A stretch of 42,801 nt of DNA from an archaeon (GTDB taxonomy: Archaea; Aenigmatarchaeota; Aenigmatarchaeia; GW2011-AR5): positions 1 through 42,801 of the forward strand of contig DATDXW010000039.1 of the NCBI GenBank assembly GCA_035289125.1, written 5' to 3'. Position 1 is the stretch's first letter; every line of letters begins with the position of its first letter. The translations under genes and the position numbers were made by a program. The notes beneath the pieces are model-generated. The model ran no database searches, was not told where the DNA came from, and saw nothing but the letters and a program-made list of their open reading frames with translations. This document shows positions 494 through 18,392 of this stretch, piece by piece.

Positions 494-1504
494 TCAGATT
501 ATCCCCGTCGTCCTCAGCACGTCTTCCGCCTTCTTCGCATCAAGCTTCACTTCGTTAAGTATCGTATATCTGTCGCGCGCGTCCTTCGCCGTTATCATCG
601 CCTTTATCATGATTTTCTTTGATATTCCAATGGCGCCCAGCGTGACAGGCAGCGCGAAGCTTTCACACAGTTTCTTTATTCTCGCCCAGTCGCCCCCCTG
701 CAAATAAGACGTGACAATGGAAGCGAGCGCGACCTGCTCGCCGTGCAACGCTCCCGCGCCCAGCGCATCCAACGCATGGGAAATGTTATGCTCGCTTCCA
801 GAACACGGACGAGACGAGCCATAGACGTTCATCGCGAAGCCCGAGCTTATCAGCGCCCAGAGAAGCATCTCCGCGCCGTGATCCGTCATATTCCTTATGT
901 CCGATATGTTTTCTTCCACCGCCTTCACGGAAAGCAACGAAAGTTCCGCCATCACCGTATGGTATTTCTCTTTCCCGGCTTTGTCGGCTATCCGCCAGTC
1001 TTCCACCGCCGAAATATTGGATATTACGTCTCCGGCTCCCGATGCATTGTTCCTGTAAGGCGCTTTCTTTATCACGTCCAAATCCGCAACTATCGCCGCC
1101 GGCTCGACCGCCTCAACACTCGCTTTCACGCCGTTCGAGTCAAGCGACGCGCGCGAAGAAACAACACCGTCGTGGCTCAACACTGTGGGAAATGCAATCC
1201 ACGGCTTCTTTGCAATAAAAGCCGGATATTTTGCCGCGTCTATTGCGCGCCCGCCTCCCATGCCTATCACGAAGTCGTAACTTTCAAGCGTCTTAGCTAT
1301 CTCTTCCAGCCGCTTCTTCTCCATCGAATCCGGCGTTATGAACGAGATGTCGAAACGCGAAAGCGCCCTTTCCACGTTAACAATTTTTCGTATGCCTGGA
1401 TCGGTGATTATCACGCACCTTTTGCCAAATCCTTCCAATAGCGACGGCAATTCTTTGGCTATGCCCTTGCCGATGAGCACACTTGACGGAAATCTCTTTA
1501 TCAT
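494..1504 (-). CDS. egsA: Glycerol-1-phosphate dehydrogenase [NAD(P)+] (archaeal lipid backbone synthesis)
   Basis: 336 aa. Iron-ADH/DHQS-like motifs GMGGGRAIDAAKY, SGSEHNISHALD and HGEQVALASI. Size and motifs match archaeal G1PDH. Confidence 0.85.
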   Translation of the reverse strand: MIKRFPSSVLIGKGIAKELPSLLEGFGKRCVIITDPGIRKIVNVERALSRFDISFITPDSMEKKRLEEIAKTLESYDFVIGMGGGRAIDAAKYPAFIAKKPWIAFPTVLSHDGVVSSRASLDSNGVKASVEAVEPAAIVADLDVIKKAPYRNNASGAGDVISNISAVEDWRIADKAGKEKYHTVMAELSLLSVKAVEENISDIRNMTDHGAEMLLWALISSGFAMNVYGSSRPCSGSEHNISHALDALGAGALHGEQVALASIVTSYLQGGDWARIKKLCESFALPVTLGAIGISKKIMIKAMITAKDARDRYTILNEVKLDAKKAEDVLRTTGII

Positions 1505-2298
1505 AATGCCCCTCCCAGTACTGCAACGATAACGTTCCCGTAAACCGCCGTCATTATCAGGGTTATGGGATAAACAGGAACGAACCGCACGCCTTCCTTT
1601 ATTATGACTTTTTTCTTTTTCCTCTTTATATCCGCCACTTCTTCTTTAGTCATCCCCCGCCACACCATGTCATCCAGCACATCCCCTTCCCTTAGCTGCG
1701 CGGAGCTTATCTCTTTCCTGAAGACATGCTTTTCTATCACGAGCGCATATCGCCAGAATACTGCAAGCAAGGACGTGATTGCGAAAACCGAAAAGGCGTA
1801 TTCTGGCGTTATTCCAAGGGACAATGAAACGACGAGTAACACGCCCACAAGTCCGACAACCCAGTGAAACGCCTTGTTATCCTTCGCGTCTTTTACCAAC
1901 AACGAAAAAACTTCCGGGTTCATCGCGCCGAGCGCTAACGAGTAGACTATCATATACGCCGAGCTCACGATGCTGAAATTAACCGCGTAATCAAAGAGTA
2001 TAGGCGCGTTGCCCAGCACAGGAACCATGAACAGTATCGAAGCCGGCACCCACGCGTCCGCCTCGCCCCACTTGCCTGCTCTGTACAGCAGCAAACCGGG
2101 CACAAGAAAAGCAAGTCCGGAAAGCAGCGACAGCACGAAAGGCGCGATGCTTTCCGCAAACAGCGACGCAACAAACCAGTAAAACAATCCGAAAGCGCTC
2201 ATCGCCACCGGAAGCTCATCCGGCACTTCCGTCGTTTTCAGGTCCCATAGTCCTGCTATCGCCGAGCCGGCTGCGGCAAGGGGGAAAAGAATGTTCAT
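1501..2298 (-). CDS. A24-family prepilin/preflagellin peptidase-like membrane protein
   Basis: 265-aa polytopic membrane ORF. Two candidate catalytic Asp motifs: WDLKTTEVPDE near the N-terminus and GKWGEADAW (GxGD-like). It overlaps the egsA start by 4 nt. The window contains many class III signal peptide substrates. Confidence 0.6.
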   Translation of the reverse strand: MNILFPLAAAGSAIAGLWDLKTTEVPDELPVAMSAFGLFYWFVASLFAESIAPFVLSLLSGLAFLVPGLLLYRAGKWGEADAWVPASILFMVPVLGNAPILFDYAVNFSIVSSAYMIVYSLALGAMNPEVFSLLVKDAKDNKAFHWVVGLVGVLLVVSLSLGITPEYAFSVFAITSLLAVFWRYALVIEKHVFRKEISSAQLREGDVLDDMVWRGMTKEEVADIKRKKKKVIIKEGVRFVPVYPITLIMTAVYGNVIVAVLGGAL

Positions 2299-3080: not shown

Positions 3081-3123
3081 TTGCCAAATGGCGCATAGCT
3101 TGCTTATTTTTCTGTATAGACTT

Positions 3124-3530: not shown

Positions 3531-3562
3531 AATCTTATTTCACGTCAATCTATTAAAAATCA

Positions 3563-3571
3563 TTTTATATA
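3563..3571 (+). promoter_or_regulatory. TATA-box-like element for trmI (could also serve the divergent small ORF)
   Basis: ttttatata lies about 25 nt upstream of the ATG at 3593. That spacing fits an archaeal promoter with a short or absent leader. Confidence 0.4.
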
Positions 3572-3592
3572 CCCTCCCGCGCATTTTTCCTT

Positions 3593-4312: not shown

Positions 4313-5521
4313 GTGATTGACATGATTCAGGAAAAAGCGGAGAAGATACTGAAGCAGCCTGTGTGCGACAATTGCCTGGGGCGCCAGTTCTCCCGCTTGC
4401 TGAGCGGCTATACGAACGAAGAGCGGGGAAAAGCGATAAGAAACGCCATTGCCATGGACGTTGACGCTGCCACGTCCTTCGGCGAAATGGATGCGTCCAA
4501 CTTTTCCTCGTGCGGGATGAGAAACGTAAAAGCTCCTGCGGAGAAAGAATGCTCAATATGCAAAAACGTTTTTGCCCGTCTTGGAAGTTACGCGAAAGCC
4601 GCCGTCACGAAGGCAAAGCACATAGAATATTCCACGTTCCTCGTTGGCACCCGCCCTTCTTCCGAACTTGTGTATGGTGAAGAGGCGCTCTGGGAAAACG
4701 TGGGCATAGATTTCTGCGAGCCGATAAAAGGCGAGATAAACAGGGAAACGGGGAAAAAAATAGAAAAGCTTTCCGGCAAAAAATTCTCGCCGAAAGGCGA
4801 CGTGATTTTTCTCATAGACATGGACTCAGGCAAGGTCGAAGTGTCAATAGCGCCCGTTTTCATATATGGCGAGTACCAGAAGTTAAAGCGCGGCATCCCG
4901 CAGACCAAGTGGCCCTCAGGCAAATACAAGACTTCGGTTGAACAGATAATCGCCAAGCCGTATATGGCTGCGACGCGCGCTGAAGCGCATAAACTGCATG
5001 GCGCAGGGCGCGAAGATATAGACGCGCGTTGCCTGGCGTGGCGCCCCTTCGTGCTTGAGCTACTGGGCGCAAAGAAGCGCGCCATTGATATAGCGAAGCT
5101 GGCAAAAAAAATCGGGAAAGAAGTGCGTGTGAGAAACCTGCGGCTCTCAAATATCGTTGAAGTCCGTTCAATCAAGGACGCGAGATACGACAAGACTTAC
5201 CGGGCGAAAGTGAAGTGCGGACCTGTGAAACGCGCGGCGCTGAAAAAACTTTCCGTGCTCTCGGCAATAGCGCAAAAAACGCCGAAGCGCGTCCTTCATA
5301 GGCGCGCGGACTTGACGAGGAAGAGGCTCGTTAAAAGCGTGAAAACGCGCTTCATAAACTCAACGGCATTTGAGCTTATCGTGCGTGGAGAAAGCGGGCT
5401 CTATATAAAAGAGCTTATCTCCGGAGACAACGGTAGGACAACGCCTTCCGTTTCCGAACTGCTCGGCGTGCCGTGCAAGTGTGCAGAATTAGACGTAATA
5501 GACATCCACGTGAAAAAATGA
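4313..5521 (+). CDS. pus10: tRNA pseudouridine synthase Pus10 (psi54/55)
   Basis: 402 aa. N-terminal zinc ribbon CDNCLGRQF...CSIC. Catalytic region GAGREDIDARCLAWRPFVLEL. C-terminal YIKELISGDNGRTTPS. Start is GTG 4313 or ATG 4322. Confidence 0.9.
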   Translation: MIDMIQEKAEKILKQPVCDNCLGRQFSRLLSGYTNEERGKAIRNAIAMDVDAATSFGEMDASNFSSCGMRNVKAPAEKECSICKNVFARLGSYAKAAVTKAKHIEYSTFLVGTRPSSELVYGEEALWENVGIDFCEPIKGEINRETGKKIEKLSGKKFSPKGDVIFLIDMDSGKVEVSIAPVFIYGEYQKLKRGIPQTKWPSGKYKTSVEQIIAKPYMAATRAEAHKLHGAGREDIDARCLAWRPFVLELLGAKKRAIDIAKLAKKIGKEVRVRNLRLSNIVEVRSIKDARYDKTYRAKVKCGPVKRAALKKLSVLSAIAQKTPKRVLHRRADLTRKRLVKSVKTRFINSTAFELIVRGESGLYIKELISGDNGRTTPSVSELLGVPCKCAELDVIDIHVKK

Positions 5522-5623
5522 AGTTCTAATAGTAAAGAACATTAATTTTGGAACATTTGATATGTTCTTTACATATAGTAAGTTGCAGCTAAATGTTCCA
5601 TTATCATTGCAATTTACTATAAG

Positions 5624-6763
5624 TCAGCATTGCGGGCGTGCCGTGTAAACGCCCTGCGCGTCGGCGCACTGCGTCGTGACTCGTACAGATGAAAAGTCTG
5701 ACGGGCATGAAAGCACGCCTTTCCCGTCGTCAAATTTCCAGTATCCAACAAGGTCGTTGGTATTCGGAACCGCAAATGCGCCCATGTTCATGCTGTCGTT
5801 TATCTCGTTGCCTCCGAGCGAGCGATTCCACACCTGCACTTCGTCTATCGTGCCGTTGTAATATCCACTGACAGCATCTCTCAGCTTGCCTATATTGAGA
5901 TCGAGTGCCGACACAAGCAGGTCCCCGTTGCTGGGAATCCATGAAGAGGAGTTCTTTACTGTTCCGTCAACGTAAAGCATTGTGGAGTTCCCTGATTTGG
6001 AGCCTGTGCATGCCACATAATACCATATTCCCGGCTGGGCCTCCTTATCAAAACTCTGGATATACGTGCTGGCATCGGCAAATTCGCATCCCCAACCAAA
6101 CAATGCGTCTCCCCCGCCTAGAGATATCGCGTAAGGAGGCACACTGAGAGATGCATCAAATTTCTGTACGACTCTATACCATGTCACAGTTTTATTCGCT
6201 TTCAGCCATGCCGCTACTGTTATCTCTCGGAGTATGTTGAGAGCTGAACTGGTCGGGACCCTCACATAATCATCCACGCCGTCAAACGACATGGCACCCC
6301 CTTTCTTGCCGCTGAGCAGGTAAGCGCATGTCTGATTTCCTGCGCTCATGCCATAGCATATTCCATTGTTGATTCGCAACGAAGAATCCGCCGTGCCGTT
6401 CGTGTTGTACGGCATCTTGAACGTAAGCGTTCCCATTTGCCCAACGTTCAGCGTAAGCGTGTTGTTTGCCGAAAAATTGTTGCCCAGCCTGTCGTAAAGC
6501 TGCCCGCTCGTCACTGCGAGATTGTCCACGTTGCCGCTGTTCTGAACGATAACAGACGCCGTGCCGTTGTTTCCGGCGCCGATGAAAACGTTATTAATTG
6601 TTATCGCCGAAGAAGAGCACGATAGGGCGGAAGCCGTCCTATTGGACACTTCGTTTTGCGACGAAGAGAAAGTAGACGTCGTCCATCCGGAAACGATAGA
6701 AGCGACAGTAACGGTTATCGCTATCAGCAGAATCGAAGCGAGCAACGGAGATATTCCTTTCAT
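5624..6763 (-). CDS. Type IV pilin-like protein with class III signal peptide and an internal LamG (concanavalin-like) domain
   Basis: Likely start is MKG/ISPLLASILLIAITVTVA at 6763; the ORF track start at 6829 is an in-frame leader. LamG_3 signature: MSFDGVDDYVRVP...LYVDG...YNGTIDEVQVWNRSL. The C-terminus keeps the Cys-x(n)-Cys tail shared with the short pilins. Confidence 0.8.
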   Translation of the reverse strand: MKGISPLLASILLIAITVTVASIVSGWTTSTFSSSQNEVSNRTASALSCSSSAITINNVFIGAGNNGTASVIVQNSGNVDNLAVTSGQLYDRLGNNFSANNTLTLNVGQMGTLTFKMPYNTNGTADSSLRINNGICYGMSAGNQTCAYLLSGKKGGAMSFDGVDDYVRVPTSSALNILREITVAAWLKANKTVTWYRVVQKFDASLSVPPYAISLGGGDALFGWGCEFADASTYIQSFDKEAQPGIWYYVACTGSKSGNSTMLYVDGTVKNSSSWIPSNGDLLVSALDLNIGKLRDAVSGYYNGTIDEVQVWNRSLGGNEINDSMNMGAFAVPNTNDLVGYWKFDDGKGVLSCPSDFSSVRVTTQCADAQGVYTARPQC

Positions 6764-6764
6764 A

Positions 6765-6830
6765 TCCCCTTGTTCACTTCGGCAACTTGACGCACTTCGT
6801 GCGTCTGACAGCATCCAAGCCGATGCCATG
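6765..6830. repeat. Left arm of the 66-bp inverted repeat (5' leader of the LamG pilin gene)
   Basis: Reverse complement of 8192-8257, identical at 64 of 66 positions by hand alignment. Contains the SD-like aagggga directly 5' of the ATG at 6763. Confidence 0.9.
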
Positions 6831-6875
6831 TTCTATGTTTCATGCGGATATTTTCACGTCCTCGATTTAAGAGTC

Positions 6876-8114
6876 TTACAGCGCCCGCGCCGACGCACCG
6901 GCATGCCAACTCTGCCTCGGCTTAATCCTGATTTTGTATATCCGCTCCGAGTCGTCGTCCAAGATTATAGCCGAGCCTTTCAGCTTCGGCAGTTCGTTTA
7001 TGTATTTTGCGATGTTAAAGAGAACGTAAGTCTGCATTATTGACTTCAGCGAATCCACGTCATTTTCAGCCGTAAGTCTGTGTGAAATGATGATGTCGCA
7101 TTGCGACAGCGCATCGGGATGCAGTTTCATCGGCCGTTGCGTGGCAAGAACCAGCGAGATACCGGGTTGTCGCCCTTCCTTCACTATCTTGCTTAATATC
7201 TCGGACGATGGACTCGACGCATCGGACGGCAAAAAGTTATGCGCCTCGTCTATGAAAATCCATGGAAGCGGCACGCCCGAGCCTTCGGAAAACTCCATCT
7301 CCCCTATCTCCTCGCGCCTGCGCGCCGCCGTTCTTTCCGCGAATATCTTTCGCGCGATGACCGCCACGAGTAGCGAGCGCACGTTCTGCGACGTAAGACT
7401 GAAGTCAAGCACGGAAAGCTTGCCGGGCGCAAGAAACGGCGGCATGCCTGCATTGCCGAATATGCCCCACGCCTTGGCATTCTCCAGCATGCCTTCCAGG
7501 GCAATCTTCTCGTGCTCAAACCCGCGCTCTTCGCGGAGCGCCCGTATAATATCGTCTATGCTGAACGGGTTGCTCATTTTTCCTATGACTAACTGAAGCA
7601 GAGAACCTAAAGGAGACACGGGGGAAAGATTGAAAGTCGCCAGCCAGTCCTCCTGCGTCAGCTCCTGCGGCGCGAGCGAAAGCACTCCGTCATAGTCCAC
7701 CCCTGCGGCTGAAAAAGCCTTTGCCTGCCCTTCCGGCACGTATACGAAAGCCGGGAAGCCCCTGACGGTCTCGCCCCATTCATGGAGAAGCGCCGTTTCT
7801 TTTTCGTTCGGAGTCTTCATCGTCCAGAATACTCCCTGCGTATCGATTATTATCGTGCAGAGGCGGTCCTTTATTTCCCGGGGCGCGTTCTGCAAACCTT
7901 CGGCTATGGTTCCCATGCTGTACGACTTACCCTCGCCCCTCTTGCCGCAAATCGTTATCACATGCGGCCTCACTATATCAAGCATCACTGGCGTCGTGAG
8001 ATGTATATCCTCGCCTTCACCCGCAAGACTTTTGCCTATGTCTATGGCTCCTCTTGAGCCATACGTTTCTTTGTCCTTGATGTCCCTGCCGATTATCGTT
8101 TCCATAACGCCCAA
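6876..8114 (-). CDS. HerA/DUF87-like P-loop ATPase (FtsK-HerA superfamily)
   Basis: 412 aa. Walker A CGKRGEGKSYS, Walker B PWIFIDEAHNF, then LVLATQRP and IISHRL motifs typical of DUF87/HerA ATPases. No NurA or other nuclease partner is adjacent. Confidence 0.7.
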   Translation of the reverse strand: MGVMETIIGRDIKDKETYGSRGAIDIGKSLAGEGEDIHLTTPVMLDIVRPHVITICGKRGEGKSYSMGTIAEGLQNAPREIKDRLCTIIIDTQGVFWTMKTPNEKETALLHEWGETVRGFPAFVYVPEGQAKAFSAAGVDYDGVLSLAPQELTQEDWLATFNLSPVSPLGSLLQLVIGKMSNPFSIDDIIRALREERGFEHEKIALEGMLENAKAWGIFGNAGMPPFLAPGKLSVLDFSLTSQNVRSLLVAVIARKIFAERTAARRREEIGEMEFSEGSGVPLPWIFIDEAHNFLPSDASSPSSEILSKIVKEGRQPGISLVLATQRPMKLHPDALSQCDIIISHRLTAENDVDSLKSIMQTYVLFNIAKYINELPKLKGSAIILDDDSERIYKIRIKPRQSWHAGASARAL

Positions 8115-8191
8115 AAAATATTGTCTTCGTTATTATTTATCGCTCTGCCAACGTCATAGAGAAACAGTGATGGCTAGGATGAGCAGGATAA

Positions 8192-8257
8192 CATGGCATC
8201 GGCTTGGATGCTGTCATATGCACGAAGTGCGTCAAGTTGCCGAAGTGAACAAGGGGA
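8192..8257. repeat. Right arm of the 66-bp inverted repeat (orphan leader copy)
   Basis: See 6765-6830. This copy is followed by a stop after 24 codons (MASAWMLSYARSASSCRSEQGEKT*) and not by a pilin ORF. Confidence 0.9.
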
Positions 8258-8268
8258 GAAGACATAAT

Positions 8269-8304
8269 ATGGCATCGACTTGTGAACGAAGTGAACAAGG
8301 GGAT
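8269..8304 (+). repeat. Short deletion derivative of the same leader module
   Basis: atggcatcgacttgtgaacgaagtgaacaaggggat retains both ends of the 66-bp unit but lacks the roughly 40-nt gcaacttgacgcac core. Confidence 0.8.
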
Positions 8305-8313
8305 ATTGATATA

Positions 8314-8895
8314 TCATAATGCGGTGGTGGTTGCCAGTATGAGCAGGAAGCAGAGCACCCAGAATTTCGCGTCCCATGCGAAGACCTTGCTACCGTCCAG
8401 CGGCGGGAATGGTATCATGTTGAACAGAGCAAGCTGCAGATTCACCCGCGCTCCGATTGCCGCAACGTCGCCCAGATATCCACCCAGTAAAAAGAACGCC
8501 AGCGCAATGAAGACGTTGGAAGCCGGGCCCGCTATGGATATGATTCCGTTCATGCTCTTCGTTATCGCCTTTGTTCGCCCCCATATGTCAGCCCGCGATT
8601 GTATGTATACGGCGCCCGGCGCCGCAAATATCACGCCAAAGAGGGATAGCGCAAGCGCTGCCACTATTCCGGTATTCCACATCCTGTACTCCGCATAAGC
8701 CCCGTAGGCACGGGCAACGAACCGATGGCAAAGCTCATGCAGCACGAAACCCGATGACACAGAAGCAAGGAACATCCCGACCGCGTAAAGCGAGAGCCCA
8801 TCTATGCCCGAAAGCCCGCCGTTATCCGCCAGCGCAAAAGCCACTGCCAAAGCCACAGCCGAAACCACTATGTCCTGCGCTTCTTTGCGTTCCAC
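8314..8895 (-). CDS. Site-2 protease family (M50) membrane metalloprotease
   Basis: HELCHRFVARAYG (HExxH) and NMIPFPPLDGSKV motifs. I moved the start to the in-frame GTG at 8895, because the first 64 codons of the track ORF overlap the SRP RNA gene. Confidence 0.8.
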   Translation of the reverse strand: MERKEAQDIVVSAVALAVAFALADNGGLSGIDGLSLYAVGMFLASVSSGFVLHELCHRFVARAYGAYAEYRMWNTGIVAALALSLFGVIFAAPGAVYIQSRADIWGRTKAITKSMNGIISIAGPASNVFIALAFFLLGGYLGDVAAIGARVNLQLALFNMIPFPPLDGSKVFAWDAKFWVLCFLLILATTTAL

Positions 8896-10964: not shown

Positions 10965-11414
10965 CTACGCGCACACCGGAGTCTCGCCCGCAGAACCGTA
11001 CTCGCCGGAAACGCCGCATCTTGTTGAAATAAAGGCGCGGCTGAAGTTCGCGCAGGCCGTTATCACGTTCGTCATGTTGAGGCTTACGCTTGCCTGCGAC
11101 CCGCGTGTTAAAGTCACGGGTAGCTGCGTCAGGTTCGTGGTTATCTGCCCGCGCGTATTCGTTATCGACGCGCCATTTATGGAATCGTCATCAAAGCCCG
11201 AGTTCCTTACGATTATCCGCCCAACCGAGTTTGCCATGTCCAGGTATACCTTTTCTATTACAACGGCTGCCGTATTGCATTCCATAGTCTTGTTCCTTAT
11301 ATCGTTGCCCGTGGACGCCTGGATATTGACCATCCAGTTCAGCGTCAGCGTTGCAACGACTAGCACTATGCCCACAAGAATCACTGCCGCCACGAGCGTA
11401 GATATTCCTTTCAT
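10965..11414 (-). CDS. Short type IV pilin-like protein (class III signal peptide)
   Basis: MKG/ISTLVAAVILVGIVLVVA N-terminus. Shared paralog motifs ECNTAAVVIEKVYLD...IIVRNSG and C-terminal CANFS...C. Confidence 0.8.
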   Translation of the reverse strand: MKGISTLVAAVILVGIVLVVATLTLNWMVNIQASTGNDIRNKTMECNTAAVVIEKVYLDMANSVGRIIVRNSGFDDDSINGASITNTRGQITTNLTQLPVTLTRGSQASVSLNMTNVITACANFSRAFISTRCGVSGEYGSAGETPVCA

Positions 11415-11851
11415 CAGCAGCCCTCCGCCCTTGTAGTCTCGTCTGACAGGCAGCTCGTGGTTATCACGGATTTGCTGTAATTCGCGCAGGCCGGCAACGC
11501 GCTGCTGAGGTTAAATGTTATGAGCGCCCGCTGGCCCCGCGACATGTCCATCGGCAACTGCGACGCATTGGCAAGCGCCATGCCGACTCCTCTCTTGTTC
11601 AGTATACTCGCGCTCACCACCTGAGCGTCGCCTTTTGCCAGAACGTACATCCTGCTCACGTTATTCTGGAAATCCAGATAAACGTTTTCTATGGTAACGA
11701 CGTTGCATTCCGTGACGAACGAGGACTTGTTTGAGAGTGCCTGCGTATCTTTCCGCACAAGCGTAAGAGCCCACGGACTCAAAATAGTGGCAAGCGTGAA
11801 AGCTATTGCCAGCAGCAGAACGGAAGCTATCAGCGGCGATATTCCTTTCAT
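11414..11851 (-). CDS. Short type IV pilin-like protein (class III signal peptide)
   Basis: MKG/ISPLIASVLLLAIAF (start taken at the second ATG). ECNVVTIENVYLD and CANYS...C motifs. Its stop overlaps the start of the downstream pilin gene. Confidence 0.8.
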   Translation of the reverse strand: MKGISPLIASVLLLAIAFTLATILSPWALTLVRKDTQALSNKSSFVTECNVVTIENVYLDFQNNVSRMYVLAKGDAQVVSASILNKRGVGMALANASQLPMDMSRGQRALITFNLSSALPACANYSKSVITTSCLSDETTRAEGC

Positions 11852-11897
11852 AATCAATATTTTGTGCCGATTCTATATAAATAAGTCTTTGCCGTGT

Positions 11898-14843
11898 TCA
11901 GCCTATAGCTCTGTTGATTATTTTCACTTCGTCTATCACGCCATTGAAGAATGATGTTGGATTGTCTCGGCGGGTGGCGCCTATAGTAAATCCCGTATCT
12001 GCGTTGCATACATTGCCCGTAGTAGGCACGGGCGCGCTCGCATCAAGAATTCCATCAACATAAAGCATGATTTGCATGCCATTGTAAACCATAGCGCCAT
12101 GATGCCATGCGTTATCATTGATAATCGTATTTCCGGTGATGTCAAATCTGTTTGTTGGATTAACACAACCGCCCGTATAGCCCGCGCCGTGCAAAGTTCT
12201 TTCTGTCGGATATTTGATAATCACGATGCCCGAGCCGCCCGAGCCGCCATTATTAGTTCCCGCCGCGCCTCCGCCTCCTCCTGTATTCGCAGTGCCTGAT
12301 GCGCCATTGCCTCCAGAAGCGCCCGCTCCTCCTCCGCAGGTGGCGGAACCTCCTGAGGTAGCTCCGCCTCCTCCTCCTCCGCCCGCATAACAGACGGAAG
12401 AACCGGAGATGCTGTTGCTTGTTCCGTTTCCTCCCGCTCCTCCAGCATTTCCATTTCCATTTGCTCCTGCCGAGGAAGCTCCACCGCCACCGCCTCCACC
12501 GAATGCCTTTGTAACGCCATTGCCGCCATTATTTCCTTGCGATGGAGAAGTGCTTGGCGTGTTGCCCGCGCCTCCCAAGCCCGGAGTATGAGCCTCTCCG
12601 CCGCCGCCGGAACCACCTGCTGCTCCATTAACATTTCCTCCCATACTGCCTGCTGTTCCTCCTCCACGGCCTCCGCCTGTTGCGGTTATCGTGCTGAATA
12701 TAGAAGCTGTGCCATTTTCATTATTTACGCTATTGGGAACGGCTCCCACGCCTCCAGCTCCAACCGTTACGGTGTATGCTTGAGCGGTAATGCCGAAAGA
12801 CGGATTATACCTATATCCTCCCGCTCCGCCGCCGCCAGAGCGTCCGCTACTATATGAGCCGCCGCCGCCGCCGCCAACAACGAGGACTTCGGCATTAAGA
12901 TTTCTATTTGCCGTGAATGTTCCGCTACTTGTAAATGTGTGAATGGTATAACCTCCACTGTATGTTATTGTTCCGCCTGTTACATTATCACTGCCCGTGA
13001 ACATGGTAAATGCTCCGGGACTAAACCCTGACGCAAATTTATCAAATATTGTCCCGCTCGTGCTATTTGAATTGGACGTTTTAAACCATCCACTAACTGT
13101 AAATGATGTAGTGTTTTGCCACGCATAATCGGAATTCACGACATAATCATTAATGCCGTCAAAAGTGAGTGCTTTCTCATATCGGCCAGTGTAATCATAT
13201 ATGTGCGAGTCATACGCCGTCGTGCCTGTGCCTTCTTCAAATCTCCATGCTCCTACAATACCGTGTCTTACCATTACGTTATTCATGCTCTGATTTATTT
13301 CTGCCGCATTCAATGCGCGATTCCAGATTTGGACTTCATCAATGGAACCAGTAAAATAAGTTTCCATGCCTGCATTGGAATTGTAACCTATAGTCAAAGG
13401 ATAAATATAGTTAGTCATCGTGATAGCGCCACTTACTGGCAAACTCGTTACCGCCACATTTCGCAATTTCAAATAGTTACCGCTTCCTCCTGTCCCAGAA
13501 CCGTCATCCAATTTGAATCTAACATACAGAGGCGTAGTAATTGAGGAACCTGTATAAGAGAGGTCTTGCCAGTTGCCGTTGGTGGAACCTGTTGTTTGAC
13601 TTTGTGTAGTCCATGACGTTCCATCGGTACTGGTTTGTAAGTGAACTGTTGTGCCCCAGTTAGAGCCGCCTACTCCTTGTGCTGAAACAGTGCCTGACCA
13701 CCTTTTGGGAAGTATGGTAGCATTTTTCCCAAGTTGAAGAAGGTGACTTATGCCCCATCCACTTCCTCCTTTCCCTCGCACCTCTGTGCCCTGGTAGAGA
13801 ATGGCCGCTCCTCCTTCCGTTGCCGCAGTAATATCAAAATATTTTAGAGCATCTGCTAATGAATTAAGTTCAATAACAGAATTAATGGCTTCAAACTGCG
13901 TGGACCTATTTTCAGTACCTTTTAGTACTCCATTAATATATATTGATGCAGTAAAATCATCATATGTTCCTACTAAATGATACCAGCCCGTAGATGTAAT
14001 ACTATTATCTCCGCCTGTTACCTCTATCACAGAAGAATTACCAATGACTGCAAATCTAATCTGGTTTACTCTTGATAGAGATGCCCTATCATCCCAAAAA
14101 ACTGCATATCCGTCTGCACCACGAATATTTGTTCTTGACAATATATATGCAACATGATTATCTAACGAAGCAGAACTCGTATCAATATAAACCCATGCAG
14201 ATACTGTTACGGTATTAGTTGGATTTAAACTTGACGAATTTAAAATATTGACATAATCATTAATCCCGTCAAATTTCATCGCGTTCCCGTACTTCCCATC
14301 TACCTGTGCAGGGCAATCAGGACACGCGGGGCGCAATGTCCCGTCATTCCAGCTCTCGCCGGAAAACGTGCCGTCGCTACCACCGACGGAATCTTTAACG
14401 ACTGTGCTCAATGTTGCGTCATCAAACTGCCAATAATTGGAAAGAACAACCGGATTGTCCGCGTCTATTTCATTTCCTGCGGCGACTATTTTTATTTTTC
14501 CAACTGGCAGACTCGCCAGCTCTATCTGATTGAAAACCAGCGTGCCGACCCTGCCCGGCGCTATCGGGGATGCGAGCGTCGCTGTAACGGGCGTTCCGTT
14601 CATCAGCGTGGTTACCTGCGTGACAGGCGACGAGCCTACGTTCTTTATCGTAATCGTCCCGCTGCCGGATGCCACGGGTCCTATTAACTGCCCCTGCGTG
14701 AAAATTTGCGACTGTGTTGCCTGCTCGGCTTGTGTGCCGCTTTGCACGACAACCGTCTGGAAAAACGCAGCGGTGAAGCCGATTATTGATATCGTGATGA
14801 GAAGTAATAATATTATCGCGATGACGGACGTTATTCCTTTCAT
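11898..14843 (-). CDS. Giant pilin-like surface protein: class III signal peptide, several LamG domains, and a glycine-rich domain nested in the last LamG domain
   Basis: 981 aa. N-terminus MKG/ITSVIAIILLLLITISIIGF. Three LamG signatures: KFDGINDYVNIL, GSIDEVQIWNRAL and LTFDGINDYVV...NGVIDEVKIINRAIG. Gly-rich block YTIHTFTSSGTFTA...VVGGGGGG...GGSGIVIIKYP. Confidence 0.85.
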   Translation of the reverse strand: MKGITSVIAIILLLLITISIIGFTAAFFQTVVVQSGTQAEQATQSQIFTQGQLIGPVASGSGTITIKNVGSSPVTQVTTLMNGTPVTATLASPIAPGRVGTLVFNQIELASLPVGKIKIVAAGNEIDADNPVVLSNYWQFDDATLSTVVKDSVGGSDGTFSGESWNDGTLRPACPDCPAQVDGKYGNAMKFDGINDYVNILNSSSLNPTNTVTVSAWVYIDTSSASLDNHVAYILSRTNIRGADGYAVFWDDRASLSRVNQIRFAVIGNSSVIEVTGGDNSITSTGWYHLVGTYDDFTASIYINGVLKGTENRSTQFEAINSVIELNSLADALKYFDITAATEGGAAILYQGTEVRGKGGSGWGISHLLQLGKNATILPKRWSGTVSAQGVGGSNWGTTVHLQTSTDGTSWTTQSQTTGSTNGNWQDLSYTGSSITTPLYVRFKLDDGSGTGGSGNYLKLRNVAVTSLPVSGAITMTNYIYPLTIGYNSNAGMETYFTGSIDEVQIWNRALNAAEINQSMNNVMVRHGIVGAWRFEEGTGTTAYDSHIYDYTGRYEKALTFDGINDYVVNSDYAWQNTTSFTVSGWFKTSNSNSTSGTIFDKFASGFSPGAFTMFTGSDNVTGGTITYSGGYTIHTFTSSGTFTANRNLNAEVLVVGGGGGGSYSSGRSGGGGAGGYRYNPSFGITAQAYTVTVGAGGVGAVPNSVNNENGTASIFSTITATGGGRGGGTAGSMGGNVNGAAGGSGGGGEAHTPGLGGAGNTPSTSPSQGNNGGNGVTKAFGGGGGGGASSAGANGNGNAGGAGGNGTSNSISGSSVCYAGGGGGGGATSGGSATCGGGAGASGGNGASGTANTGGGGGAAGTNNGGSGGSGIVIIKYPTERTLHGAGYTGGCVNPTNRFDITGNTIINDNAWHHGAMVYNGMQIMLYVDGILDASAPVPTTGNVCNADTGFTIGATRRDNPTSFFNGVIDEVKIINRAIG

Positions 14844-14992
14844 GATATATATTGCACGTCCGTAGTATTAAAATTAAACGTACCGTCAGGGCTTTGTTTA
14901 AATAATCTGTCGCAATACGATGGGTTGCGATGTTTGCTTTCTGAAACACAACGAGCTGTGGTATGAAACCATTTATTAAACAAAGCCTACCG

Positions 14993-15466
14993 TCAGCATC
15001 CCTTTGGCACGCCATCAAATCTCACGGAATCGCACGCGCTCCCCACTATTGCGAAAGAGAAATTGGCGCATGCCGGTATCAACGAAGACGTATCAAAGTT
15101 GAAATAGGCGTAGCCTCCTCTCGTCACGTTCACTGGAAACTCCGTGAGGTTCGTCGCCGGCGTTCCCGTGTTGGAATAAACCACAGCCGAGCGCACCTGT
15201 TCGTTCGTATAGCCGGAGTTTCTTACTATCATCCTTGCGCGGCTGTTCGCATTGTCCAAGTATACGTCTTCTATGCTCAGCGACGCCGCGTTGCATCGAA
15301 CGGTCTCATCCGTCTTGTTTTCCACAGTCTTCGTCGTTGAGCCGATAAGCGTGTTGAACCATCCGGCAAATATCGGCACGACCGTGACAGCTATGGCTAC
15401 CATAAGCACCGCCGCGAGAATCGGCGAGATTCCTTTCTTATGCGATGAACCTGACATTCTTTGCAC
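14993..15466 (-). CDS. Short type IV pilin-like protein (class III signal peptide)
   Basis: KKG/ISPILAAVLMVAIAVTVV. RCNAASLSIEDVYLD...MIVRNSG and CANFS...C motifs shared with 10965 and 11414. Confidence 0.8.
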   Translation of the reverse strand: MQRMSGSSHKKGISPILAAVLMVAIAVTVVPIFAGWFNTLIGSTTKTVENKTDETVRCNAASLSIEDVYLDNANSRARMIVRNSGYTNEQVRSAVVYSNTGTPATNLTEFPVNVTRGGYAYFNFDTSSLIPACANFSFAIVGSACDSVRFDGVPKGC

Positions 15467-15519
15467 CCCTAATCTTTTGAAACATTTTGTCGTCGGCGGT
15501 TATAAGTATGACAGATACA

Positions 15520-15750
15520 TCAAGAACGAGACGCATAGCGTTTGCCCCTCCACTCCCTAACTATGTCCGTCATATTGGGACTTTTTTTAGAGGACACTTC
15601 CTTTCGTATGATGTCCATGGCATTGGAAGCCCTCTGTATTTTCGCATTATCGCTATATTTTGACACCGTCATATACTCAAATCTCCCTCCCTTGTGTCTC
15701 TTCCGCATCCTGTCCTGAAACGCCATGACTTTCGCCATTTCTATTATCAT
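15520..15750 (-). CDS. Hypothetical 76-aa protein
   Basis: ORF with tttaaataaaaa about 20 nt upstream of the ATG on the minus strand. No family recognised. Confidence 0.4.
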   Translation of the reverse strand: MIIEMAKVMAFQDRMRKRHKGGRFEYMTVSKYSDNAKIQRASNAMDIIRKEVSSKKSPNMTDIVREWRGKRYASRS

Positions 15751-15840
15751 GAGAATATGTGACGCGCTTTTTATTTAAACTTTCTTGCCGCGAACACTTG
15801 TCACGGTAAAGACTAAGACGCGCCAGTCAAACTGCTGAAA

Positions 15841-15968
15841 GAAAAGGACTCATCAGGCATGGTTGTATTTTAGCGGTGCGGTTCGTCTTCGGCTTTATTA
15901 CAAGGAATTCGTAGAATTCCTTGTATGCCCAAAGACTTTCCACGGAAAGTCTTTGTTGTACTTGTTGC
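15841..15968 (+). repeat. Core of a MITE-like intergenic repeat (copy 1) with two long palindromes
   Basis: Aligns with 34558-34684. Palindromes are caaggaattcgtagaattccttg (15901-15923) and caaagactttccacggaaagtctttg (15930-15955). Weaker similarity extends to about 15820-16065. Confidence 0.85.
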
Positions 15969-16071
15969 CGTCCTGTCAAAGAGTGAACCACTAATCCGCA
16001 CCCATCTCAGCTGCCCGCCAAAGATGTGCAGCTTTCGTTATGCAGGAATGTATTTGAAAGAACAAGCGGGA

Positions 16072-16219: not shown

Positions 16220-18220
16220 TCATAAACATTGCTCGTAATACACGTCGCTGCCGTAGTAGCTGTCCGTGACTCCGGGGCAGTTGTCCGTGGCAAAGCGGAC
16301 GCGGTCTATGGAAGAAACAGGCATACACATGCCGCCTGTATCATAAGGATACCACTTGGTTATCACCTTACCCGATGTATCCTCCACTTCCACCCGGAAT
16401 TCTGTGTTCGCCTTCGCGTTCTCGTAGCGGGTATAATACGAAGACGCGCCGTTCTGGTTCGTGGACTGGTTTACAAGACCGGTAGCGTTGAAGAGGCGCA
16501 CGAACATTATATTGGGATAAGTGACATTTATGTTCAGCGTTACGTTGAAAGAACGGTTAAACGACGAAACGCGCACTTCGTCTATCGTGCCATTGAATGC
16601 CAGCGTTTTGTTTACCGTGGCATTCACCCCGCCGATGAAAGAATTGCTCCCGAAGACGACCATGCCGCGGTTGGAAGACGAATTTACCAGATGGCTATCC
16701 AGATACAGCGATGCCGTGCTGTCATTGTATGTTCCTGCGACATTGTGCCATCCCGTCGTCCATGAAGATACGTCGTAGCCTGCCGAAGTGTTGCCTGCCG
16801 TAAACCGCATCGTGGTTCCCGTCTTGTGCAGGGAAAGCCCGCCGAGATAGCGGTCGCGGATTTCCTCGGGAGAGAGCGTCCTGTTGTATATGGCAACTTC
16901 GTCTATCGTGCCGTTCCAGAAGTATGCGCTATCTCCCGACTGCCCGCCCACAAACAGGTTGACGTCATTCCACATGGCATCTCCTGCCGTGTATGTAAGC
17001 GTTTCCCTGGGAATGCCGTCCTGATACGTTTTCCAGTTGGCGGAAGCCAGCGACTTGTCGTAAGTGACGGCTATGTGAACCCACCGGTTTAACGCGGACG
17101 TGTCGCCCCACAGCAAGCTAGTTGTACCCGGTGCCAGAAACCACTTTTTACTCGCGGCGTAATAACCAACGGCTAATCTGCCCTGTGCATAATAACTCTT
17201 GGAAATCCAGAAGCTCCATTTGTCCTGCTTTAGGTACACCCATCCCATGATTGTAAGGGTGCCGTTGATTTTCAGGCGTGCCGGATTCCCGAAATCGATG
17301 TATTGGTTGACACCATTTAAATCCCACCCCGTCCCGAACCTGCCGCTGTTCGTGAACGTCGGGCTGTTCGTGGCAGTGCCGGAGTTGCCGTAAGGCGACG
17401 AGTCTTTTACGCCGCTGGAACCCGTGCTGTTCTCCGAAAAGTGCGTCAGCAATACCAGCCCTGCATCCGTGTTGCTTATCTGCGACGGCGTGGCGAATAT
17501 TGTGTAGTTGTTTGAAGCGATATTCTTGTTCATGTTTATCCACGCTTCCACGGTGCCCGTGTTATTGCTAAAACTGCTGGAGGCAAGTTGCACGTAGTCG
17601 CCAGCACTATCAAATGTTATCGCCGAGCCGAACTTGCCGCTGCTGTTCCATGCGGGGCATTGTGCCGCGGCGCCCTGGCACACCGTACTGCCGTTGAACA
17701 GCGTTCCGGTTATACTTGAAGAATTGTCCGTGGCGTTTGTCCCGCTACTATAATCAAAGTGATAAAGCATCGTCGTGTTCGTGTCGTTGAAGTAAGCGGC
17801 ACGGGTGTCCATCGTTCCGACGGGCATGCGGGGCGACGCCCAAATCTGTATGGCATTGAAAGCTTCGTTCGTCGTGGAGCCGGCGCTCAGCGAGGAAGGA
17901 GTGCCGTAAAGGACGTGGGATATTCCGTTGCTTAACGTTATAATGATGTTTGACAGCGAAACGCTCTGCGAACCAGTGTTTTCTATGGACGCGTTCAGAG
18001 AGTAAGGCGAGCCTGTGAAACAGTTATAATTGCACGCAACCGAGACATTACGAACGTAGAAAGAAGCCATCTGGCACGCAAGCTTCGTGGTCGTCTGGTT
18101 CTTCAGCTCCTGCCCCTGACTCTGAAAGAGAGACGTCGCCCATCCTGATATGATGGAAGCCGTCGTGACAGTGATGATTATCATCAGTATGGCTATTATA
18201 AGCGGGTCTGCCCCCTTCAT
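16220..18220 (-). CDS. Type IV pilin-like protein with class III signal peptide and two LamG domains
   Basis: Start taken at MKG/ADPLIIAILMIIITVTTA (18220); the track ORF starts 28 codons earlier. LamG signatures ITFDSAGDYVQL, WNGTIDEVAIYNRTLSPEEI and FNGTIDEVRVSSF. Cys-containing tail. Confidence 0.8.
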   Translation of the reverse strand: MKGADPLIIAILMIIITVTTASIISGWATSLFQSQGQELKNQTTTKLACQMASFYVRNVSVACNYNCFTGSPYSLNASIENTGSQSVSLSNIIITLSNGISHVLYGTPSSLSAGSTTNEAFNAIQIWASPRMPVGTMDTRAAYFNDTNTTMLYHFDYSSGTNATDNSSSITGTLFNGSTVCQGAAAQCPAWNSSGKFGSAITFDSAGDYVQLASSSFSNNTGTVEAWINMNKNIASNNYTIFATPSQISNTDAGLVLLTHFSENSTGSSGVKDSSPYGNSGTATNSPTFTNSGRFGTGWDLNGVNQYIDFGNPARLKINGTLTIMGWVYLKQDKWSFWISKSYYAQGRLAVGYYAASKKWFLAPGTTSLLWGDTSALNRWVHIAVTYDKSLASANWKTYQDGIPRETLTYTAGDAMWNDVNLFVGGQSGDSAYFWNGTIDEVAIYNRTLSPEEIRDRYLGGLSLHKTGTTMRFTAGNTSAGYDVSSWTTGWHNVAGTYNDSTASLYLDSHLVNSSSNRGMVVFGSNSFIGGVNATVNKTLAFNGTIDEVRVSSFNRSFNVTLNINVTYPNIMFVRLFNATGLVNQSTNQNGASSYYTRYENAKANTEFRVEVEDTSGKVITKWYPYDTGGMCMPVSSIDRVRFATDNCPGVTDSYYGSDVYYEQCL

Positions 18221-18392
18221 GCTATTTCTTTCGCGGTGGCGGTATTTATTTGTGGAGTAAAGGCTAAAGACAGGGATTTCGGCAAGGCAATCTAGCTGGC
18301 GCACGTGAGGTTAACGAACCCGCCATGAAACAAAAAGATTCGCGATGCCCTTTTCGTCTCTACTCTCCCGTCGCAATGCCGCAAAACCAACC

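What the first reader, a model, noticed from the sequence alone, without database searches (positions are those of the whole stretch)
12195..12980. Glycine-rich domain inserted inside the C-terminal LamG domain of a 981-aa pilin-like giant
- The last LamG domain starts normally (ALTFDGINDYVVNSDYAWQNTTSFTVSGWFK...) and ends normally (...WHHGAMVYNGMQIMLYVDG...FFNGVIDEVKIINRAIG).
- It is interrupted by about 260 aa: TITYSGGYTIHTFTSSGTFTANRNLNAEVLVVGGGGGGSY...GGAGG...GGSGGSGIVIIKYP.
- That block looks like the glycine-rich domain known from phage tail-fibre-like and other surface proteins. Its usual pattern is an FTxSGTFTVP start, a poly-Gly core and a GxVxIxY end.
- A class III signal peptide, several LamG domains and a nested Gly-rich module is a combination I do not recognise as described. 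It suggests a pilus-tip adhesin.
Basis: partly seen in the sequence, partly recalled or inferred. Interest (0 to 1): 0.6.

Follow-up and report, generated by a model that had tools for sequence, protein, structure and literature searches.

The report
Phage-fibre module nested in archaeal pilin
A tiny symbiotic-type (DPANN) archaeon encodes a pilin-like surface protein whose two sugar-binding-type (LamG) domains each carry a second domain in a loop; one of them is the receptor-binding module of phage tail fibres, so the protein is most likely a multi-headed adhesin, a new arrangement of known parts.

Summary
ORF 11898-14843 (minus strand, 981 aa) has a class III signal peptide, an Ig-like stalk and two LamG domains, not several.

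- **The reported insert.** A complete Pfam Gly_rich_2 domain (aa 621-878) splits the C-terminal LamG. Its flanks match LamG profile positions 1-50 and 66-145. They match as one domain when spliced, and they align to an uninterrupted LamG in a same-genus genome.
- **A second insert.** The first LamG is also split, by a 156-aa weakly discoidin-like guest (aa 323-478).
- **What the guest is.** It models at pLDDT 94.7 and resembles the receptor-recognising TNF-like/glycine-rich part of the cyanophage Pam3 tail fibre. It also resembles hundreds of predicted viral proteins.
- **How rare it is.** The domain occurs in 5 of 371 genomes of the phylum and in none of four congeners. Among those five it is nested only here.
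- **Whether it is real.** Five near-identical copies from other assemblies argue against an assembly chimera.
- **What is not shown.** Closure of the jelly-roll has only indirect structural support, because no coordinates or PAE were available. The adhesin role and a pilus-tip position are inferred, by analogy with the modular pilin PilC of Streptococcus sanguinis.

Verdict: a new variant of a known kind, of moderate interest.

The parts
11898..14843 (-). Whole ORF, 981 aa plus stop: a modular type IV pilin-like surface protein (P0001)
   Evidence: Five near-identical copies in independent assemblies.
14754..14843 (-). Class III (prepilin-type) signal peptide and hydrophobic N-terminal helix, aa 1-30 (MKG|ITSVIAIILLLLITISIIGF...)
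   Evidence: Weak Pilin_N, UpsB and arch_flag_Nterm matches. The same KG-I-S/T-P motif occurs in five paralogues of the window, three of which pass TIGR02537. 53% identity to the N-terminus of a same-genus pilin.
14439..14753 (-). Ig-like (CARDB-like) stalk region, aa 31-135
   Evidence: Weak CARDB and Agd3_C matches only. The same-genus homologue has three or more such 'V(T/S)(I/L)KN(V/T)G' repeats. This assignment is tentative.
13878..14288 (-). LamG domain 1, N-terminal part, aa 186-322 (HMM matches end at aa 317-319)
   Evidence: Laminin_G_3 profile positions 1-110. Own HMM states 1-125.
13410..13877 (-). Guest domain 1 nested in LamG1, aa 323-478 (156 aa): probably a discoidin / F5-F8 type C (galactose-binding-like) domain; it varies most between strains
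   Evidence: F5_F8_type_C E 3.2e-5, 24.5 bits, below the cut-off. PDB 3f2z (BF3579) E 0.0097. 27 of 39 sites that vary among the five copies lie in aa 320-478.
13272..13409 (-). LamG domain 1, C-terminal part, aa 479-524
   Evidence: Laminin_G_3 positions 118-151. The spliced construct matches positions 1-151 in one piece, 97 bits.
12984..13178 (-). LamG domain 2, N-terminal part, aa 556-620
   Evidence: Laminin_G_3 positions 1-50. Own HMM states 2-65. AF2 pLDDT 74-93 for aa 560-599. Aligns to an intact same-genus LamG.
12210..12983 (-). Guest domain 2 nested in LamG2, aa 621-878: a complete Gly_rich_2 (PF21722) module, a TNF-like beta-sandwich plus a glycine-rich lattice of the phage tail-fibre receptor-binding type
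   Evidence: AF2 pLDDT 94.7, pTM 0.92. Foldseek: Pam3 fibre 7ypx E 1.6e-5. BFVD TMq up to 0.89. PHROG 2295 E 2.3e-52.
11901..12209 (-). LamG domain 2, C-terminal part, aa 879-981
   Evidence: Laminin_G_3 positions 66-145, E 1.7e-16. AF2 pLDDT 82-93 over most of it. Foldseek hits to LamG/LNS/pentraxin domains.
10965..11857 (-). Two small pilin paralogues (149 and 147 aa) immediately downstream
   Evidence: Class III signal peptide motifs. UpsA-like and arch_flag_Nterm matches.
14993..15466 (-). Small pilin paralogue (157 aa) immediately upstream
16220..18304 (-). 694-aa pilin-like paralogue with a complete LamG nested inside another LamG
   Evidence: Own HMM: N-part aa 226-311, complete LamG aa 324-489, C-part aa 495-585. 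Pfam finds 3 LamG stretches.
5624..6829 (-). 401-aa pilin paralogue with one uninterrupted LamG
1501..2298 (-). Candidate prepilin peptidase (Peptidase_A24-like)
   Evidence: PF01478 E 7.1e-5, 23.6 bits, just under the 26.5-bit cut-off

Best explanation
The gene encodes a modular, type IV pilin-like surface protein of a small-genome (DPANN-type) archaeon. After cleavage of a class III signal peptide, its hydrophobic N-terminal helix anchors it in a pilus or in the membrane. An Ig-like stalk then carries two LamG (concanavalin-A-like lectin) domains.

Each LamG serves as a scaffold for a guest domain grafted into a surface loop. LamG1 carries a 156-aa, probably discoidin-like domain. LamG2 carries a complete 258-aa Gly_rich_2 module, grafted with about 3-residue linkers into the hairpin between strands 'AFTMFTG' and 'RTLHGAG'.

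The Gly_rich_2 guest has the fold of the distal, receptor-recognising part of phage tail fibres: a TNF-like sandwich whose loops form a glycine-rich lattice with a variable tip. Both of its chain ends lie in the sandwich, so it can sit on a hairpin and point its tip away from LamG.

I infer that the protein works as a multivalent adhesin presenting up to four potential binding surfaces, most likely for glycans or surface proteins of a partner cell. I also infer that the Gly_rich_2 module was acquired horizontally, because its closest relatives are in CPR bacteria and uncultured phages.

Shown: the domain identities, the nesting, the lineage restriction, and the presence of pilus assembly genes in the genome. 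Inferred: binding function, ligand, pilus (tip) location, and the donor.
For: Nesting:
- The Pfam profile coordinates of the flanks are complementary (1-50 and 66-145), with a full-length Gly_rich_2 between them.
- The spliced flanks match as one LamG.
- My own HMMs give the same picture, with the junction between states 65 and 66.
- A same-genus protein (G002:C18) has an intact LamG that aligns at about 44% identity to aa 484-600 and 884-980. The gap between the two search matches is 31 aa there against 287 aa here.
- A same-genus pilin (G004:C2, N-terminus 53% identical) has the ground plan pilin + Ig repeats + two intact LamG domains.
- In the AF2 model of aa 540-981 both flanks reach pLDDT 74-93, and the model hits LamG/LNS/pentraxin folds.

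Identity of the guest:
- AF2 gives pLDDT 94.7.
- The best PDB fold match is Pam3 gp24, followed by weak matches to the ALK/LTK TG domain. A PDB profile search also hits the Pam3 fibre.
- BFVD returns 238 matches, PHROG 2295 matches, and IMG/VR gives 382 confirmed hits.

Chain ends close together: a natural circular permutant of the guest sits inside a LamG in P0140.

Pilin context:
- Six class III signal peptide paralogues lie in the window, together with a Peptidase_A24-like gene.
- Three ATPase/platform gene pairs lie elsewhere in the genome.

Analogy: S. sanguinis PilC is a pilin moiety + Ig-like fold + ConA-like lectin. It binds glycans and is modelled at the pilus tip (PMC9934059).

Lineage restriction: PF21722 occurs in 5 of 371 genomes of the phylum and 0 of 4 congeners, and none of the other four is nested.

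Not an artefact: five copies come from separate assemblies.
Against: - No coordinates or PAE were returned, so contact between aa 556-620 and 879-981 and the 620-879 distance were not measured.
- The alignment used for that model consisted of LamG rows split across the insert, which biases the model towards closure.
- The strand just before the insert (aa 609-616) was modelled at low confidence.
- P0001's own N-terminus scores below the curated cut-offs of the pilin models.
- No assembly ATPase lies next to the gene.
- There are no expression, localisation or binding data.
- Pam3 gp24 and similar fibres are trimers that need a chaperone. A monomeric module inserted in a loop may behave differently.
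- The strain-level variation lies in the other guest, not in the Gly-rich module. The Gly-rich module may therefore not be the specificity-determining part.
Confidence: 0.62

Rival explanations
1. The architecture is the same, but the protein is not a pilus subunit. It is a class III signal peptide protein that stays anchored in the membrane or in a short pseudopilus, like the Sulfolobus bindosome sugar-binding proteins. There it would act as a cell-surface lectin or substrate-capture protein and not as a tip adhesin.
For: - Weak match to the bindosome protein BasA and to UpsA/UpsB, all below cut-off.
- No assembly ATPase or platform gene lies in the window.
- At 981 aa with bulky domains it could not be a major subunit.
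- Many archaeal class III signal peptide proteins are not filament subunits (general knowledge).
Against: - The gene sits between three small pilin paralogues.
- The genome has three complete ATPase/platform pairs.
- The closest characterised analogue, PilC of S. sanguinis, is modelled at the pilus tip (PMC9934059).
Confidence: 0.25
2. The insertion is a neutral or damaging domain-shuffling accident. LamG2 no longer folds, the flanks are decaying remnants, and only the Gly-rich module, if anything, is functional.
For: - The strand preceding the insert is modelled poorly.
- The N-flank alone scores only 19.5 bits.
- No orthologue outside this species-level cluster carries the arrangement.
Against: - Both flanks keep the LamG hallmark motifs (FDGxxDYV, FTVSGW, WHH, LYVDG, FxGxIDEV).
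- They reach pLDDT above 90 in places.
- Among five strain variants the N-flank has 0 and the C-flank 6 variable sites, with an intact frame.
- Nested guests in LamG recur in this genus and elsewhere: the 694-aa paralogue, G001/G002/G004 proteins and P0140. The scaffold therefore tolerates insertions.
Confidence: 0.07
3. The Gly-rich block lies between two separate, complete LamG domains, or the arrangement is an assembly or frameshift artefact.
For: In nearly all other proteins that have both domains they stand in tandem: all but two (P0001 itself and P0140) of the 64 such proteins examined.
Against: - The flanks cover only profile positions 1-50 and 66-145 respectively, so neither is a complete domain.
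- It is a single open frame.
- Five independent near-identical copies exist.
Confidence: 0.03

Closest known systems
Modular type IV pilin PilC of Streptococcus sanguinis (pilin moiety + Ig-like fold + ConA-like lectin module; PMC9934059)
   Same: Both have a class III signal peptide, a short pilin moiety, an Ig-like spacer and then a concanavalin-A-like/LamG module. Both are bulky 'minor pilins' encoded among small pilins. PilC binds glycans and is modelled at the pilus tip.
   Different: PilC is bacterial (a monoderm), has a single lectin module and no nested guests. P0001 is archaeal, has two LamG domains, and each of them hosts another domain. No sequence relationship beyond the LamG superfamily was tested or claimed.
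Tail fibre gp24 of cyanophage Pam3 (PDB 7ypx/7yfw; PMC9608196), and more distantly the gp38 adhesin of phage S16
   Same: The guest domain gives the best PDB fold match (E 1.6e-5, full length) and a profile-sequence match that includes the C-terminal G(I/V)(I/V)I(I/V)xY strand. Both have a TNF-like sandwich plus glycine-rich motifs. In Pam3 this part is described as recognising the host receptor.
   Different: gp24 is a trimeric fibre with an N-terminal helical shaft and a dedicated chaperone. Here a single copy is grafted into a loop of a cellular lectin domain. TM-scores to the solved structure are only 0.44-0.46.
Pfam PF21722 Gly_rich_2 proteins of CPR/Patescibacteria and other bacteria, often in tandem with LamG or SPRY
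   Same: The same domain at 50-64% identity. It frequently co-occurs with Laminin_G_3 in one protein (64 of 236 proteins examined).
   Different: In those proteins the domains stand side by side (GL, LG, GGLL, LGL...). Nesting inside LamG was seen only here and, at another loop and circularly permuted, in P0140. P0116 shows the reverse arrangement, with LamG domains inside a Gly_rich_2.
ALK/LTK TNF-like + glycine-rich (TG) ligand-binding domain (PDB 7nx1, 7lir, 7ls0)
   Same: Weak fold matches follow directly after the Pam3 fibre (E 0.04-0.4). The Pam3 paper reports the same resemblance (PMC9608196).
   Different: The probability of these matches is low (0.1-0.3). There was no Pfam PF12810 match at E up to 1. 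This is a resemblance of fold type only.
TafC fimbrial protein of Haloarcula hispanica (NCBIfam NF052521)
   Same: Shares a LamG-type region (67 bits).
   Different: The score is far below the 410-bit cut-off. Tafi subunits are exported by the Tat pathway, whereas P0001 has a class III signal peptide.

Membership tests
Pfam PF21722 Gly_rich_2 | Full-length match to the family profile above the gathering score | tested here: met
   67.4 bits against a 24.3-bit cut-off, profile positions 1-225 of 226. 84.3 bits in the genome search.
Pfam PF13385 Laminin_G_3 (LamG2, split) | The match covers the whole profile once the insert is removed, and the halves are complementary | tested here: met
   N-flank positions 1-50, C-flank positions 66-145. 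The spliced construct covers 1-145 at 76.1 bits against a 27.6-bit cut-off.
Pfam PF13385 Laminin_G_3 (LamG2, split) | The two flanks form one closed beta-sandwich in three dimensions | tested here: inconclusive
   AF2 gives the flanks pLDDT 74-93 and Foldseek finds LamG folds. No coordinates or PAE were available, and the alignment used presupposes the split.
Archaeal type IV pilin / class III signal peptide protein (PF07790, TIGR02537) | N-terminal K/R-G followed by a cleavage site and a ~20-residue hydrophobic helix; match to the pilin N-terminal models | tested here: inconclusive
   The motif MKG|ITSVIAIILLLLITISIIGF is present. The model scores are below cut-off for P0001 (PF07790 11.9-15.5 bits, TIGR02537 10.1 bits). 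Three paralogues in the window with the same motif pass TIGR02537.
Archaeal type IV pilin / class III signal peptide protein (PF07790, TIGR02537) | A prepilin peptidase and an assembly ATPase plus platform protein are encoded in the genome | tested here: met
   Peptidase_A24-like ORF at 1501-2298 (23.6 bits, just under the cut-off). T2SSE and T2SSF pairs on contigs C46, C43 and C63.
Archaeal type IV pilin / class III signal peptide protein (PF07790, TIGR02537) | Incorporation into a filament | not testable with these tools
   Needs microscopy or proteomics.
Phage tail-fibre receptor-binding module (Pam3 gp24 type) | TNF-like sandwich plus glycine-rich lattice fold | tested here: met
   Foldseek 7ypx_A E 1.6e-5, probability 1.00, 280 columns. 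BFVD TMq 0.80-0.89.
Phage tail-fibre receptor-binding module (Pam3 gp24 type) | Trimeric fibre with an N-terminal shaft and a chaperone; part of a virion | tested here: not met
   A single copy lies inside a cellular pilin-like ORF in a housekeeping neighbourhood (tRNA synthetases, GatB, Pus10). There is no helical shaft.
TafC fimbrial protein (NF052521) | Score above the equivalog cut-off | tested here: not met
   67.1 bits against a 410-bit cut-off.
Pfam PF00754 F5_F8_type_C (guest in LamG1) | Match above the gathering score | tested here: not met
   24.5 bits against 28.2 bits, covering only profile positions 55-118. Weak PDB hit 3f2z, E 0.0097. This is a lead, not membership.

The most novel reading that the evidence does not exclude
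A DPANN archaeon has captured the receptor-binding head of a phage tail fibre. The source would be co-resident CPR bacteria or their viruses in the same aquifer community. The head was grafted into a loop of a lectin domain on a type IV pilin, yielding a 'Russian-doll' tip adhesin that the episymbiont uses to recognise its host cell. LamG would then serve in this lineage as a general display scaffold for swapping binding heads: LamG, discoidin-like and Gly_rich_2 guests are all seen.
Probability: 0.3. Interest if true: 0.65.

Novelty: new variant of a known kind. Interest (0 to 1): 0.45.

Why it matters
DPANN archaea depend on physical attachment to other cells, but the molecules that mediate recognition are mostly unknown.

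This protein is a concrete candidate that can be expressed. It combines a pilin anchor with up to four potential binding surfaces. One of them has the fold of a domain that phages are proposed to use for recognising their hosts.

It also shows that LamG domains in this lineage repeatedly accept whole guest domains in surface loops. That is relevant to how adhesin repertoires diversify in reduced genomes. It is also relevant to protein engineering, as a natural loop-display scaffold for a polyglycine-lattice binding head.

The individual parts (modular pilins, LamG, Gly_rich_2) are all known, so the interest is moderate.

Tried and rejected
1. **One alignment for both domains.** I tried to build a single alignment covering both LamG flanks and the Gly-rich domain for AlphaFold2. 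MAFFT stacked LamG rows, or half-rows, onto the glycine-rich columns whenever Gly-only rows were present. I therefore ran two jobs, one with LamG rows only (A4) and one on the guest alone (A5).
2. **Genome scan.** A 28-aa motif alignment worked better.
3. **Foldseek on the aa 540-981 model.** It aligned only about 105-120 columns, so it could not show whether the N-flank is part of the sandwich.
4. **Recombination scars.** No direct repeats flank the insertion; only glycine-codon repeats were found.
5. **Full-length orthologues.** None was found in 5.8 billion or 1.84 billion protein clusters. The searches were dominated by the Gly-rich domain, with LamG-array proteins making up the rest.
6. 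**The only other Gly_rich_2 hit in the order.** G028 carries a shorter, divergent variant in a Sec-type, C-terminally anchored 1938-aa protein, which is not comparable.
7. **TafC, bindosome BasA and UpsA/B labels.** Rejected, because all score far below their cut-offs.
8. **Membership of the ALK-type Gly_rich family (PF12810).** No match.
9. **Literature search for PF21722.** No paper found.
11. **Same loop as the LamG-in-LamG insertions?** My first impression that they share a loop with the Gly-rich insert did not hold. The junctions lie at nearby but probably different places, around HMM states 54-82 against 65/66.
Full report
**1. What is at the coordinates**

The interval 12195-12980 lies inside a single minus-strand ORF, 11898-14843, of 981 aa. 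It corresponds to aa 622-883.

Pfam finds a full-length Gly_rich_2 domain (PF21722) at aa 638-878, covering profile positions 1-225 of 226, E 2.5e-18. It also finds four separate stretches of Laminin_G_3. When I scanned the pieces one by one, these resolved into two LamG domains, each split in two:

| Domain | N-terminal part | C-terminal part |
|---|---|---|
| LamG1 | aa 192-317, profile 1-110 | aa ~487-522, profile 118-151 |
| LamG2 | aa ~575-629, profile 1-50 | aa ~898-980, profile 66-145 |

Constructs with the inserts spliced out match the profile in one piece, at 97 bits (LamG1) and 76 bits (LamG2). HMMs I built from about 190 LamG and 200 Gly-rich domains of homologues gave the same map. 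The Gly-rich domain then spans aa 621-878 at 213 bits.

There are two LamG domains, not several, and both carry a nested guest.

**2. Comparative evidence that this is an insertion**

The window belongs to a 770-kb genome that is 89.5% complete.

- A same-genus genome (G002, contig 18) encodes a 966-aa protein whose second LamG aligns to P0001 aa 484-600 and aa 884-980 at about 44% identity. The two genome-search matches (P0001 aa 496-608 and 896-980) lie 31 aa apart there and 287 aa apart in P0001. The difference, 256 aa, is the size of the guest.
- Relative to that intact domain the guest sits in the turn of a hairpin. G002 reads '...LFGIGRQNANPAPNGVVVFETHG'. P0001 reads '...FTMFTGSDNV[258 aa]PTERTLHGAG'. 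The linkers on either side are only about three residues long.
- In my LamG HMM the junction falls between match states 65 and 66.
- Another same-genus genome (G004, contig 2) has a pilin whose N-terminus is 53% identical to P0001. It consists of a pilin helix, several Ig-like repeats and two uninterrupted LamG domains that end the protein. This is the ground plan of P0001 without guests.

**3. Structure predictions**

MAFFT could not align LamG rows across the insert once Gly-only rows were present, so I ran two jobs.

Job 1 covered aa 540-981 with 29 LamG rows that MAFFT did split across the insert (A4).
- It gave pLDDT 74-93 for aa 560-599 and 82-93 for most of aa 900-980.
- The strands fall where LamG strands are expected.
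- The guest, which had no alignment in this job, scored below 40.
- Foldseek matched the model to LamG/LNS/pentraxin/sialidase-CBM folds at probability 1.0. It aligned only about 105-120 columns, roughly the length of the C-flank alone.
- No coordinates or PAE are returned, so I could not measure flank-flank contacts.
- High confidence in a 45-residue N-flank is hard to explain unless it packs against the C-flank. That is indirect support only, and the alignment presupposes the split.

Job 2 covered aa 617-882 with 89 homologous domains cut from metagenomic and viral loci (A5). It gave pLDDT 94.7 and pTM 0.92. Beta-strands lie at both ends, with long non-helix, non-strand stretches between them.

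**4. What the guest is**

- The best PDB fold match of the guest model is the cyanophage Pam3 tail fibre: 7ypx E 1.6e-5 and 7yfw E 7.5e-4, over the full length.
- Weak matches to the TG (TNF-like + glycine-rich) domains of LTK and ALK follow, as does a match to a Bxb1 tail-tip chain.
- A sequence profile of the family also finds the Pam3 fibre in the PDB (E 0.004), aligned through the terminal 'GIIIVQY' strand.
- Against predicted viral structures there are 238 matches at E <= 0.001, with TMq up to 0.89. They include 'glycine-rich domain-containing proteins' of uncultured Caudovirales, cyanophages, Pelagibacter phage, prasinoviruses and Halorubrum phage HF2.
- PHROG 2295 matches at E 2.3e-52.
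[quoted passage not shown] The glycine-rich motifs form a lattice, the distal tip is less conserved, and the fold resembles S16 gp38 and the ALK ligand-binding domain (PMC9608196).

A domain can sit in a hairpin only if its two ends are close together. A natural circular permutant supports this. In P0140, a 6910-aa archaeal-pilin-like protein with about 26 LamG domains, a Gly-rich domain is nested in a LamG at a different loop. It starts at the 'VQVLVVGGGGGG' strand and ends with the 'GGNITT..YRVHTFTSNGTFTT' strands that normally come first.

**5. How unusual the arrangement is**

- Gly_rich_2 and LamG often occur in the same protein: 64 of the 236 Gly-rich proteins examined also have LamG. 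They stand in tandem in all but P0001 and P0140.
- One protein, P0116, shows the reverse arrangement, with two LamG domains inside a Gly_rich_2.
- Within the organism's order, PF21722 was found in 2 of 61 genomes and in none of four congeners.
- Within the phylum it was found in 5 of 371 genomes from 170 genera. In the other four genomes the domain is free-standing or in tandem.
- No full-length relative exists in the protein collections beyond a 90%-identity cluster of five sequences.
- Those five come from different assemblies and contigs and are 97-99% identical. This makes an assembly chimera very unlikely.
- The closest guest sequences (up to 63-64% identity) are in metagenomic contigs and CPR bacteria. 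One such cluster (P0179: Levybacteria, Portnoybacteria) has a member from the same sequencing run as one copy of P0001. This fits horizontal acquisition in a shared habitat but does not prove it.

**6. The other guest and the lineage habit**

The LamG1 guest (aa 323-478, 156 aa) gives only sub-threshold hints of a discoidin/F5-F8 type C fold: Pfam 24.5 bits, and PDB 3f2z at E 0.0097.

It holds most of the variation between strains. Of the 39 sites that vary among the five copies, 27 lie in aa 320-478, 5 in the Gly-rich guest, and 0 in the pilin/Ig part. Only five sequences are available and one of them contributes most of the changes, so this is a lead.

The 694-aa paralogue in the window (16220-18304) has a complete LamG nested in a LamG. 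So do secreted proteins of three congeners. P0140 has a third kind of guest, rich in cysteine, near the site used in LamG1. LamG therefore acts repeatedly as a host scaffold, at three or more loops.

**7. Pilin context and likely function**

- The N-terminus (MKG|ITSVIAIILLLLITISIIGF) has the archaeal class III form, and five other ORFs in the window share it. Three of those pass TIGR02537. P0001 itself scores below the cut-offs.
- The window has a Peptidase_A24-like ORF.
- The genome has three T2SSE/T2SSF pairs on other contigs.
- The best-characterised analogue is S. sanguinis PilC, which consists of a pilin moiety, an Ig-like fold and a ConA-like lectin module. It binds sialylated and sulfated glycans and is modelled in a tip complex because its bulk fits nowhere else (PMC9934059).
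- By analogy, P0001 is most likely a minor, possibly tip-located, multivalent adhesin. A membrane-anchored, non-filament surface lectin is the main rival.
- Nothing here tests binding, ligand or location.

**8. Verdict**

The nested-domain reading is well supported by sequence and comparative evidence, and only indirectly by structure prediction. The adhesin and tip role is plausible but inferred.

All the building blocks are known. What I did not find described is a phage-fibre receptor-binding module grafted into a LamG loop of an archaeal pilin, and, in the same protein, a second guest in the other LamG. I rate it a new variant of a known kind, with interest 0.45.

Noticed in passing
window 16220-18304 (-): A 694-aa pilin-like paralogue contains a complete LamG (aa 324-489) nested between the N-part (aa 226-311) and the C-part (aa 495-585) of another LamG. 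The same LamG-in-LamG design occurs in secreted proteins of three same-genus genomes (G002:C18, G001:C9, G004:C6).
   Followed up: partly
window 13410-13886 (-), aa 320-478 of P0001: Among five 97-99% identical copies from different assemblies, 27 of 39 variable sites fall in the guest domain of LamG1 (17% of its positions, against 0-6% elsewhere). Most of the changes come from one sequence. This may indicate a fast-evolving binding surface.
   Followed up: partly
P0116 (L118:101-3970): The reverse nesting: one Gly_rich_2 domain is split into three pieces (HMM 31-98, 99-185, 188-260) by two inserted LamG domains.
   Followed up: no
P0140 aa 1098-1486 and 3467-3818: A 6910-aa protein with a class-III-like N-terminus and about 26 LamG domains. 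One LamG hosts a circularly permuted Gly-rich domain at a different loop. Another hosts a ~190-aa cysteine-rich guest.
   Followed up: partly
window 1501-2298 (-): A 265-aa membrane ORF with a Peptidase_A24 (prepilin peptidase) match just under the Pfam cut-off, about 10 kb from the pilin cluster. The assembly ATPase and platform genes lie on other contigs (C46, C43, C63).
   Followed up: partly
P0179 / P0256 and P0250: The CPR (Levybacteria/Portnoybacteria) protein cluster whose representative is 63% identical to the guest, the highest identity in the representative search, has a member from the same run-derived assembly (SRR3989344) as one strain variant of P0001. Possible donor and recipient therefore share a habitat.
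   Followed up: no
L027 (G028:C2) 2655-8471 (-): The only other PF21722 hit in the order is a short divergent variant (~190 aa). It sits in a 1938-aa, cysteine-rich protein with a Sec-type signal and a C-terminal membrane anchor. My HMM of the canonical domain does not detect it.
   Followed up: no
L210 (G004:C2) 13706-15991 (+): A same-genus pilin with an almost identical N-terminal helix, three or more Ig-like 'xKNxG' repeats and two intact C-terminal LamG domains. It is the likely guest-free counterpart of P0001.
   Followed up: partly
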